Part shown: positions 17,019 to 36,835 of the stretch, in pieces
Numbering within the stretch: the first letter of the stretch is position 1
Layout of the letters: each line of letters opens with the position of its first letter
Origin: Candidatus Aenigmatarchaeota archaeon
Lineage (GTDB): Archaea > Aenigmatarchaeota > Aenigmatarchaeia > Aenigmatarchaeales > Aenigmatarchaeaceae
Reading direction: 5' to 3'
Assembly (NCBI GenBank): GCA_043802485.1
Contig: JAZDKZ010000001.1
Coordinates: forward strand, 32,001-96,000
DNA length: 64,000 nt
Translations under genes and position numbers: made by a program
Notes under the pieces: generated by a model
What the model was told of the DNA's origin: nothing
Seen by the model: the letters and a program-made list of their open reading frames with translations, nothing else
The model's database searches: none

Positions 17019-17258
17019 ATGGTATTTGGAATAGGAAGAAAAAAGAAAACAACGAAAAAGAGAACAGTAAAGAGAAAAGTAACAAAGAAAAAAACAGCAA
17101 AAAGAAAGTCAGCCAAGAAGGGCAAGGCTTTCGGTGGTTACATGATAAGGCCAAACGCAGACTTGGCAAAGATAATCGGCAACAAGCCGGTTTCACCTTC
17201 TGAGATGACCAAGAATATCTGGACCTATATCAAGAGAAGAAAACTTGCGGGCAGATAA
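17019..17258 (+). CDS. small basic SWIB/MDM2-domain protein
   Basis: PNADLAKIIG.PVSPSEMTKNIWTYIKRRKL matches the N-terminal half of SWIB; Lys/Arg-rich N-terminus; AGGTGA SD. Confidence 0.8.
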   Translation: MVFGIGRKKKTTKKRTVKRKVTKKKTAKRKSAKKGKAFGGYMIRPNADLAKIIGNKPVSPSEMTKNIWTYIKRRKLAGR

Positions 17259-17331
17259 TTGTTTTTTTCAGCACAAGATAGAGCATGATTTCTATAAGCT
17301 TTAAAAGGTTAAAAACATTTAAAGAGTTTAT

Positions 17332-17486
17332 GCCGACGTGGCAGAACCAGGTTAATGCGCTAGACTTGAGGACATATGATTAGATGGCTTGACTCCGAAT
17401 GCGGCGAAATGAGGAATGATAGGCGAAATGATGTCTAGAAATCTAGTGCCCGCAAGGGCTTGCAGGTTCAAATCCTGCCGTCGGCG
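17332..17486 (+). tRNA. tRNA-Ser(TGA) with 70-nt intron (17371-17440) at position 37/38
   Basis: GCCGACG/CGTCGGC acceptor, CTAGA/TCTAG anticodon stem, long variable arm, G discriminator, relaxed BHB. Confidence 0.93.
17371..17435 (+). ncRNA. box C/D guide sRNA embedded in the tRNA-Ser intron
   Basis: C ATGATTA 17376-82, D' CCGA 17395-98, C' ATGAGGA 17409-15, D ATGA 17428-31, two 12-nt guides, terminal stem GACA/TGTC. Confidence 0.75.
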
Positions 17487-17522
17487 CTTTTTCTTTAAGA
17501 AACTCAAAAACCAATAAGGTCT

Positions 17523-17813
17523 ATGAAGAAAAAATGTAGACATGATATCAAGATAGAAATTATGGTAAAACTTTTCAAGCCTATGACAAGCGGTTCTCTA
17601 AATCAAGAGGTGAGATTGAGTTCCATTAAATTGAAAAAAAATCTGGACGAACTCAAAGAAAGAATGTTGATAAGTGAGCTCAGGAACAAGGACGGCACAG
17701 TCCTCTATCACACGACCCCAAAAGGTAGGAAGCTGGTCAAGTTCTATAAGGATTTGTCAGACCATCTCGAAGGCAAGGATGCACTTCCCCACATTTTTGG
17801 CGTTTATAGATAG
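17523..17813 (+). CDS. winged helix-turn-helix protein
   Basis: HTH followed by YHTTPKGRKL wing motif. Confidence 0.75.
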   Translation: MKKKCRHDIKIEIMVKLFKPMTSGSLNQEVRLSSIKLKKNLDELKERMLISELRNKDGTVLYHTTPKGRKLVKFYKDLSDHLEGKDALPHIFGVYR

Positions 17814-22541: not shown

Positions 22542-22673
22542 GCGGAGGTAGCCAAGTCTGGTCAAAGGCGCAGGACTTAAGATAACTTAAGTTTTGATGC
22601 AAGTTCGTCTTGCGGTGATAAGAAATCCTGTCTCTTAGTGGGTTCGTCGGTTCAAATCCGGCCCTCCGCACCA
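22542..22673 (+). tRNA. tRNA-Leu(TAA) with 43-nt intron (22582-22624), CCA encoded
   Basis: GCGGAGG/CCTCCGC acceptor, CAGGA/TCCTG stem, BHB core CTTA/TAAG, conserved position before rpl18e. Confidence 0.93.
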
Positions 22674-36740: not shown

Positions 36741-36835
36741 TGGGCGGGAGGAGATTCGAACTCCCGACCTCCACGTTATCAGCATCGCCTAATCAGATGA
36801 TTATGTGGCGCTCTACCAGGCTAAGCTACCCGCCC
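36741..36835 (-). tRNA. tRNA-Ile(GAT) with non-canonical 21-nt intron at 30/31 (36784-36804)
   Basis: GGGCGGG/CCCGCCC acceptor; perfect BHB AG-CGCC-ACA...GGCG-ATG-CT; spliced stem CCACG/CGTGG. Confidence 0.92.

What the first reader, a model, noticed from the sequence alone, without database searches (positions are those of the whole stretch)
17371..17440. tRNA-Ser intron is a complete box C/D guide RNA, probably targeting rRNA in trans
Seen: stem GACA/TGTC closes C (ATGATTA), guide GATGGCTTGACT, D' (CCGA), C' (ATGAGGA), guide ATGATAGGCGAA and D (ATGA), with both guides exactly 12 nt. The departures from consensus are compensatory: a T-A pair in C/D and a G-C pair in C'/D'. Neither guide matches the host tRNA. 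Known: the established case is the euryarchaeal tRNA-Trp intron, which guides methylation of tRNA-Trp itself. Inference: the D guide is complementary to UUCGCCUAUUA, which I recall from the archaeal 23S A-loop helix, so the N+5 rule would give about C2558 in E. coli numbering. The D' guide could pair with an AAGCCAU element near an rRNA 5' end. This would make the tRNA a host gene for an rRNA-modifying sRNA, like eukaryotic intronic snoRNAs.
Basis: partly seen in the sequence, partly recalled or inferred. Interest (0 to 1): 0.8.

Follow-up and report, generated by a model that had tools for sequence, protein, structure and literature searches.

The report
Circular ribosome-methylation guide inside tRNA intron
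The 70-base intron of this tiny archaeon's serine tRNA gene is cut out as a small RNA circle that looks like a guide for adding methyl groups to two nucleotides of the ribosome's decoding site, so the tRNA gene doubles as the carrier of a ribosome-modifying RNA.

Summary
The intron (17371-17440) of tRNA-Ser(UGA) in an Aenigmatarchaeota genome has C, D', C' and D boxes whose K-turn pairs covary in relatives. Three metatranscriptomes from three studies hold it as a circle joined exactly 17440->17371. Fibrillarin, Nop5, L7Ae, EndA and RtcB are present. The D' guide pairs 10/10 with 16S helix 44 and points at A1408 (E. coli numbering); it covaries with 16S, occurs in 143 of 371 genomes of the phylum and matches Nanoarchaeum sR13, whose Am1408 was measured. 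The D guide cannot use the 23S A-loop (sequence differs). It belongs to a guide family that best fits 16S C1402 (rival: C240) and is free-standing elsewhere, so this intron is a chimera of two sRNAs. Methylation itself was not tested here. I found no paper on a tRNA intron guiding rRNA methylation, but this scan found the same intron family before on other genomes (e1-5716356, e1-7003069, e1-7655263). New here: the circle in RNA data, the C1402 guide and its origin, and no RsmA in this lineage.

The parts
17300..17306 (+). TATA-like box TTTAAAA about 26 nt upstream of the tRNA
   Evidence: sequence; promoter role inferred from the N. equitans tRNA box A position described in PMC3491384
17332..17370 (+). 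5' exon of tRNA-Ser(UGA); anticodon TGA 17367-17369, G37 at 17370
17365..17441 (+). Relaxed bulge-helix-bulge: helix 17365-68 with 17435-38 (one U.U), bulges 17369-71 and 17439-41
   Evidence: junction confirmed
17371..17440 (+). 70-nt intron, excised and circularised box C/D RNA
   Evidence: 100-nt contigs 17371-17440 going back 70 in runs X2, X4, X5
17371..17374 (+). Terminal stem 5' strand GACA; pairs with TGTC 17432-17435, leaving a 5-nt loop that holds the ligation junction in the circle
   Evidence: sequence; circular fold
17376..17382 (+). Box C (ATGATTA)
17383..17394 (+). D' guide; +2..+11 pair with 16S nt 1359-1368 (E. coli 1405-1414); +5 = A1362 = E. coli A1408
17395..17398 (+). Box D' (CCGA)
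17401..17406 (+). Conserved GCGGCG in the D'-C' loop; probable extra rRNA-pairing element, partner unresolved (helix 18, helix 27 or 1399-1403)
   Evidence: precedent PMC3116282
17409..17415 (+). Box C' (ATGAGGA)
17416..17427 (+). D guide (core TGATAGGC); best fit 16S C1356 = E. coli C1402; rival 16S C217 = E. coli about 240
17428..17431 (+). Box D (ATGA)
17441..17486 (+). 3' exon with long variable arm; no CCA encoded; T-rich stretch 17488-17496 follows

Best explanation
The tRNA-Ser(UGA) gene is the host gene of a dual-guide box C/D sRNA. The precursor is cut by EndA at the bulge-helix-bulge and the intron is closed into a 70-nt circle (circle shown; EndA and RtcB as the enzymes inferred). 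L7Ae, Nop5 and fibrillarin bind the two kink motifs (inferred from boxes, covariation and gene presence). The D' guide pairs with 16S 1405-1414 and directs 2'-O-methylation of A1408, and the D guide pairs with about 1400-1408 and directs Cm1402; the two targets overlap, so they would be served one after the other (targets inferred from pairing and covariation; both methylations measured only in N. equitans). The RNA is a chimera: its 5' half is the sR13-type A1408 module, its 3' half comes from a second sRNA that elsewhere is free-standing and pairs the C1402 guide with a helix-27 guide. Odds by step: functional C/D RNA 0.95, A1408 0.9, C1402 0.78.
For: Circle: 3 of 4 runs laid (X2, X4, X5; three studies) hold a contig that spans 17371-17440 and joins back, 0 mismatches, depth 117.6, 5.2, 14.6, not reaching the exons. 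Machinery. D' guide: best of 8770 nt of stable RNA, 2 of 300 shuffled guides reach 10 WC. In 29 genomes with both intron and helix 44, guide +11 vs 16S 1414 is A-U 19, U-A 4, C-G 1, A x A 5; G096 has guide U(+7) with its own A1410; G185 has G(+6) where six genomes of its genus have C1409. In the order, 12 of 18 genomes with GTCAAGCC carry the guide, 0 of 9 with a changed helix 44. Neq sR13 carries the same guide core and Am1408 was measured. D guide: the TGAYRGGC family is in 33 of 371 genomes, control 0; of 22 copies inspected outside this family of genomes, 7 have C at +8 (WC to G1405, mismatch at the C240 site) and 20 sit beside a helix-27 guide. G034 has a free sRNA with our 3' half; its helix 44 pairs (-13.4) while its C240 site reads GCGGCTGATTAG and breaks at +7 (by hand). 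G008's C240 site mismatches +4. A at +7 goes with U1404 in this order.
Against: No methylation or protein binding was measured. In G000 alone the D guide pairs as well with C217 (9 WC) as with C1402 (both -13.8), and +8 is U in 28 of 28 intron copies, a wobble at G1405. Five free-standing copies have A at +7, and three of those genomes with a read helix 44 (G087, G088, G090) have C1404, a mismatch. 11 of 300 shuffles match the D guide's 9-WC run. The D guide has decayed in G013 and several metagenome copies. 5 of 29 genomes mismatch at +11, G055 also at +7; G080 and several others mismatch at +10. Invariance of the D' guide is partly imposed by my patterns. Kin are not independent. G004 and G023 have an intronless gene and no guide was found in them. 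The circle is seen in assembled contigs only, with no DNA-run control.
Confidence: 0.78

Rival explanations
1. Same RNA and same A1408 target, but in this lineage the D guide directs methylation of 16S C217 (E. coli about 240, start of helix 11), alone or in addition to C1402.
For: Longest perfect match in G000: 9 WC; U at +8 in 28 of 28 intron copies pairs WC there; the site reads CCTATCA in G000, G001, G002, G006; two Methanopyrus guides were predicted for the same position (alignment C250).
Against: Family members with C at +8 cannot pair there; G034's site is broken and G008's mismatches +4 while the guide is unchanged; +3 is a purine in 28 of 28, which fits Y1400 and never pairs with G239.
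Confidence: 0.12
2. The RNA acts mainly as an assembly chaperone that holds helix 44 open (a stand-in for the RsmA/Dim1 checkpoint), with methylation at one or both sites secondary or absent.
For: The two targets overlap; an extra conserved GCGG element could grip a second helix; no full-length RsmA in G000 or in any of the 7 TGATAGGC-type and 11 anti-SD-type genomes searched, against 26 of 58 overall; this role was proposed for Neq sR13.
Against: Guide-to-box spacing keeps +5 on A1408 throughout and both kink motifs are conserved; the same intron family is kept in RsmA-containing genomes (13 of 15 U39-type, 6 of 7 helix-27-type); the RsmA pattern rests on two or three lineages and incomplete genomes. 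Not exclusive of the best explanation.
Confidence: 0.06
3. One reading: D guide to 23S C2558 and D' guide to the AAGCCAU near the 16S 5' end.
For: A 7 WC + 1 G.U match of the D' guide at 16S nt 46 exists.
Against: The 23S sequence is absent here and in 5 of 5 relatives' own-type 23S; the invariant +2..+4 bases of the D' guide do not pair WC at the 5' site.
Confidence: 0.01
4. A relic: an old sRNA trapped in an intron, stable because circular, no longer used.
For: Lost in some relatives; archaeal tRNA introns circularise as a by-product.
Against: Boxes and guides stay fixed while loops and flanks drift, with compensatory changes in boxes and against 16S; no second A1408 guide with boxes in G000.
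Confidence: 0.03

Closest known systems
Nanoarchaeum equitans sR13 (Dennis 2015, PMC4644070: passages, supplement files 1 in part and 3 whole; Seistrup 2017, PMC5389701: passages, supplement not read)
   Same: Same D' guide core TGGCTTGACT before the D' box, same 16S target 1405-1414/15 and A1408. 25 of 104 cores here also keep sR13's anti-Shine-Dalgarno D guide.
   Different: sRNA13 is described as having its own promoter and terminator (taking the numbering as shared); here the RNA is a tRNA intron released by splicing, and its D guide is the C1402 type.
Box C/D RNA in the euryarchaeal pre-tRNA-Trp intron (Haloferax, Pyrococcus sR50; seen only as described in PMC7994747 and PMC4090602, passages)
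   Same: C/D RNA nested in a 37/38 BHB intron of about 65-70 nt, able to act in trans after excision.
   Different: Host is tRNA-Ser, and the targets are 16S rRNA, not C34/U39 of the host. 15 relatives do add a U39 self-guide in a permuted layout.
N. equitans tRNA-Met intron C/D-like RNA (Randau 2012, PMC3491384: passages)
   Same: Stable, abundant tRNA intron with C/D elements in a DPANN archaeon.
   Different: One box C and one box D were described and no target named in the passages seen; here four boxes and two rRNA targets.
Eukaryotic intronic snoRNAs with extra base-pairing (van Nues 2011, PMC3116282: passages)
   Same: Guide RNA released from a host intron; conserved D'-C' loop element that may pair with rRNA.
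   Different: Protein-spliced BHB intron of a tRNA, whole intron kept as a circle, no exonucleolytic trimming needed; the loop's partner is not established.

Membership tests
Archaeal box C/D sRNA | C/D and C'/D' motifs able to form kink-turns | tested here: met
   four boxes, covarying C5/D2 and C'5/D'2 pairs
Archaeal box C/D sRNA | 10-12 nt guides upstream of D and D' | tested here: met
   12 and 12 nt
Archaeal box C/D sRNA | D' guide complementary to a stable RNA, WC pair at +5 | tested here: met
   10 WC to 16S 1405-1414; null 2 of 300; covariation
Archaeal box C/D sRNA | D guide complementary to a stable RNA, WC pair at +5 | tested here: met
   9 pairs (7 WC + 2 G.U) at C1402 or 9 WC at C240; which site rests on comparison
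Archaeal box C/D sRNA | L7Ae, Nop5 and fibrillarin encoded | tested here: met
Archaeal box C/D sRNA | Exists as a discrete RNA | tested here: met
   circular contigs in 3 of 4 RNA runs laid; contigs only, no DNA control
Archaeal box C/D sRNA | Binds the core proteins and methylates the target | not testable with these tools
   Am1408 and Cm1402 measured only in N. equitans
Archaeal box C/D sRNA | Matches a curated Rfam family | tested here: not met
   0 matches up to E 5; not a defining need, guides are lineage-specific
tRNA-Trp-intron guide (sR50 type) | Host is tRNA-Trp(CCA) | tested here: not met
   host is tRNA-Ser(UGA)
tRNA-Trp-intron guide (sR50 type) | Guides aim at C34 and U39 of the host tRNA | tested here: not met
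   no conserved self-match in G000; U39 guide present in 15 of 56 relatives' introns
tRNA-Trp-intron guide (sR50 type) | BHB intron at 37/38, excised and circularised | tested here: met
Neq sR13 type | D' guide for 16S A1408 | tested here: met
Neq sR13 type | D guide for the anti-Shine-Dalgarno (A1534) | tested here: not met
   replaced by the TGATAGGC guide; kept in 25 of 104 related cores

The most novel reading that the evidence does not exclude
In Aenigmatarchaeota, BHB introns of stable RNAs serve as the general vehicle for C/D guides: guide modules move between free genes, tRNA introns, tRNA leaders and 16S introns and swap halves. In this RsmA-less lineage the tRNA-Ser circle puts both decoding-site methylations (Cm1402, Am1408) on one RNA and takes over the RsmA/Dim1 checkpoint, tying 30S maturation to tRNA splicing. 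Its D-guide family would also name the missing guide for Cm1402 in N. equitans (sR18 D guide).
Probability: 0.3. Interest if true: 0.85.

Novelty: new variant of a known kind. Interest (0 to 1): 0.68.

Why it matters
Reviews read here give tRNA-Trp as the unique archaeal tRNA intron with a guide function, and its target is the tRNA itself. An rRNA-directed guide in a tRNA intron, kept across much of a phylum, gives archaeal tRNA introns a second job and is a prokaryotic parallel of intron-hosted snoRNAs. The targets flank the A and P sites; A1408 faces A1492/A1493. The RNA is 70 nt and its substrate 25 nt, so the claim is directly testable in vitro. It also offers a test of the idea that an sRNA replaces RsmA/Dim1, and a candidate guide for a measured but orphan archaeal Cm1402. 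Since the scan already reported this intron family on other genomes, the added value here is the RNA evidence, the C1402 half and the chimeric origin.

Tried and rejected
23S A-loop target: absent. 16S 5'-end target: weaker and not covarying. Alternative parse with TTGA as D box and U39 as target: fits G000 by 7 nt, not kept in G003 or G008. D guide on a tRNA (7 WC at C7:53115): depends on +1..+3, which vary. My first argument for C240, that G013 and G007 had lost the site, was a regex artefact and was withdrawn. A genome-wide scan for single C-guide-D matches gave mostly coding-region noise and no second credible A1408 or C1402 guide (output partly cut); no separate helix-27 sRNA was found in G000. 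16S was not found by Rfam search in G003, G008, G016, G017, G020 (0 of 5). The C240 site could not be read in 9 of 10 genomes tried. Metagenome contigs could not be searched for their 16S. X1 holds only the unspliced gene, which may be DNA. Thermodynamic folding of the circle is weak (-5.4) and ignores kink-turns. G020 holds foreign 23S copies, so its rows are doubtful. G283's GACAGGC after C' is a hairpin arm, not counted as a guide.

Full report
Setting. The window is G000:C1:32001-96000 of a 769-kb, 89% complete archaeal genome. Records that share the intron are titled Aenigmatarchaeota or uncultured archaeon, so I take the genome to be of that DPANN phylum. It encodes fibrillarin, Nop5, L7Ae, EndA and RtcB, one 16S (C6:221220-222700, minus) and one 23S gene.

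Observation. The tRNA at 17332-17486 has anticodon TGA and a long variable arm. A 70-nt intron follows G37, framed by a relaxed bulge-helix-bulge. I laid 4 of the 10 runs listed. X2, X4 and X5, from three studies, each hold a 100-nt contig that covers 17371-17440 without a mismatch and joins 17440 back to 17371; these contigs do not reach the exons. That is what a 70-nt circle gives in such assemblies (inference), and it fixes both splice sites. X1 holds the unspliced gene. Contigs show presence, not level, and no DNA run was available as control.

Conservation. A BLAST-type search found the gene or part of it in 32 of 41 genomes. Of the Ser(UGA) genes read, 17 carry the module, G034's intron has lost the D' guide, and G004 and G023 are intronless. 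A pattern scan of species genomes gave 70 stretches, 55 of them in tRNA-Ser(UGA) genes by my reading and 15 chance hits. A metagenome scan gave 95 stretches, 80 returned, 67 distinct. Without requiring the tRNA, the C-guide-D' module is in 143 of 371 phylum genomes (control 1). Of 40 of these hits that I fetched, 20 lie in tRNA-Ser(UGA) introns, 17 in insertions at the 16S 3' end and 3 in unrelated DNA; this confirms the claim of e1-7003069. Box covariation is given in the observation check. Positions fixed by my patterns are not evidence of conservation.

D' guide. Its best match among 8770 nt of rRNA, SRP RNA and tRNA genes is 16S 1359-1368, 10 WC pairs from +2 to +11, +5 on A1362; 2 of 300 shuffles do as well. 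By the E. coli row of the Dennis alignment and the numbering in Seistrup 2017 this is A1408. In 29 genomes with both parts, all five guides that changed at +11 are matched by 16S (U-A 4, C-G 1), while five unchanged guides mismatch. G096 (+7) and, by genus, G185 (+6) add compensations. Mismatches at +10 or +7 occur in some genomes. N. equitans sR13 has the same guide core; Am1408 and Am1409 were measured there by mass spectrometry and RiboMeth-seq and assigned to sR13.

D guide. Two 16S sites tie in G000: C217 (E. coli about 240; 9 WC) and C1356 (C1402; 7 WC + 2 G.U), both -13.8 kcal/mol. I first leaned to C240, on an argument that proved to be an artefact. A note on Cm1402 guides elsewhere (e1-7534901) led me to search the guide family phylum-wide: 33 of 371 genomes, control 0. 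Outside this genome's family the 22 copies inspected are not in tRNA genes, and 20 sit in a four-box RNA with a helix-27 guide. Position +8 is U in 15 and C in 7, as expected opposite G1405 and not opposite A243. G034 holds a free sRNA whose 3' half (loop TGCGGCTGA, C', ATGATAGGC, D) is that of our intron; its helix 44 pairs and its C240 site is broken. Against: A at +7 faces C1404 in G087, G088 and G090, and U at +8 never reverts in 28 intron copies. I put C1402 at about 0.78. N. equitans has Cm1402 with no known guide; the D guide of its sR18 resembles this family by eye, one base further from the box; untested.

Modular history (inference, no tree built). The A1408 half is constant. The second guide is anti-Shine-Dalgarno in 25 of 104 cores (as in sR13), C1402-type in 28, helix-27-type in 9 and other or absent in 42. 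The helix-27 type covaries with 16S in G025 and G035. In 15 of 56 genome introns a permuted layout adds a guide for the host's U39. The simplest reading is an sR13-like RNA resident in the Ser intron that took over one or the other guide of the C1402/helix-27 sRNA.

Loop element. GCGG or GGCG lies before C' in 78 of 104 cores and is missing mostly where the anti-SD guide is present. In 77 loops scored, the longest WC run is longer to helix 18 than to 1399-1403 in 62, equal in 10 and shorter in 5; helix 18 is repetitive and offers more registers, and helix 27 (CCGCAA) is a third candidate that I did not score. Extra pairing from this loop is known in yeast. Unresolved.

RsmA. A full-length PF00398 match (E below 1e-25) is in 26 of 58 genomes, not in G000 nor in any of 7 C1402-type or 11 anti-SD-type genomes. 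This fits the proposal that sR13 stands in for RsmA/Dim1 but rests on few lineages and incomplete genomes.

Literature. [quoted passage not shown] The library lacks most subscription papers, bioRxiv supplements are closed, and the Seistrup supplement was not read; any of these could hold a prior description. The original tRNA-Trp papers were seen only as cited. The scan's own notes report this intron family on three other genomes, C/D RNAs in rRNA introns and self-guiding tRNA introns; I had derived A1408, U39, the anti-SD guide and the self-guides before reading them.

Verdict. Real and conserved; works like, and meets every testable feature of, an archaeal box C/D sRNA; not a member of the tRNA-Trp-intron type; half an sR13. 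New variant of a known kind. Interest 0.68.

Noticed in passing
window 22582-22624 (intron of tRNA-Leu(UAA), 22542-22673, +): Minimal guide: antisense to the own anticodon loop, D-like box, hairpin, C-like box, with +5 on U34. Six more introns of this genome do the same for position 34: Gln-UUG, Glu-UUC, Met-CAU, Trp-CCA, Arg-UCU and Lys-UUU (degenerate box). Noted before by the scan on other genomes.
   Followed up: partly
L016, L017, L018, L041, L144, L146 (second intron in the anticodon stem); L109, L110, L114, L117, L125, L127, L132, L138, L148 (5' leader): A mini guide for U34 of tRNA-Ser(UGA) sits in a second intron in 6 and just upstream of the gene in 9 of 56 genomes; none credible in G000.
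   Followed up: partly
L332-L353: A free-standing four-box C/D sRNA with C1402 and helix-27 guides, mostly in family f12, flanked by a conserved CCTCAAA...GAGG stem.
   Followed up: partly
L284-L304 (17 loci): sR13-like RNAs inside insertions at several different sites of 16S helices 44-45.
   Followed up: partly
L001; G000:C6:6456-6683: The 23S gene has an insertion of about 230 nt after the A-loop region; content not analysed.
   Followed up: no
G000 whole genome: No full-length RsmA/KsgA found; 16S has U1400 and U1404, and the 23S A-loop helix reads TTCACTGG.
   Followed up: partly
window 36741-36835 (-): A tRNA with a short intron that holds CTGA and a C-like ATGCTGA; my script found no canonical split.
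   Followed up: no
window 17019-17258 (+) and 17523-17813 (+): A small lysine-rich ORF upstream that resembles a SWIB domain and a 96-aa ORF downstream that resembles a winged helix (both resemblances recalled, not tested); flanks are otherwise housekeeping genes.
   Followed up: no
PMC4644070 supplement, NeqsR18: Its D guide resembles the C1402 family and may explain the orphan Cm1402 of N. equitans; by eye only.
   Followed up: no
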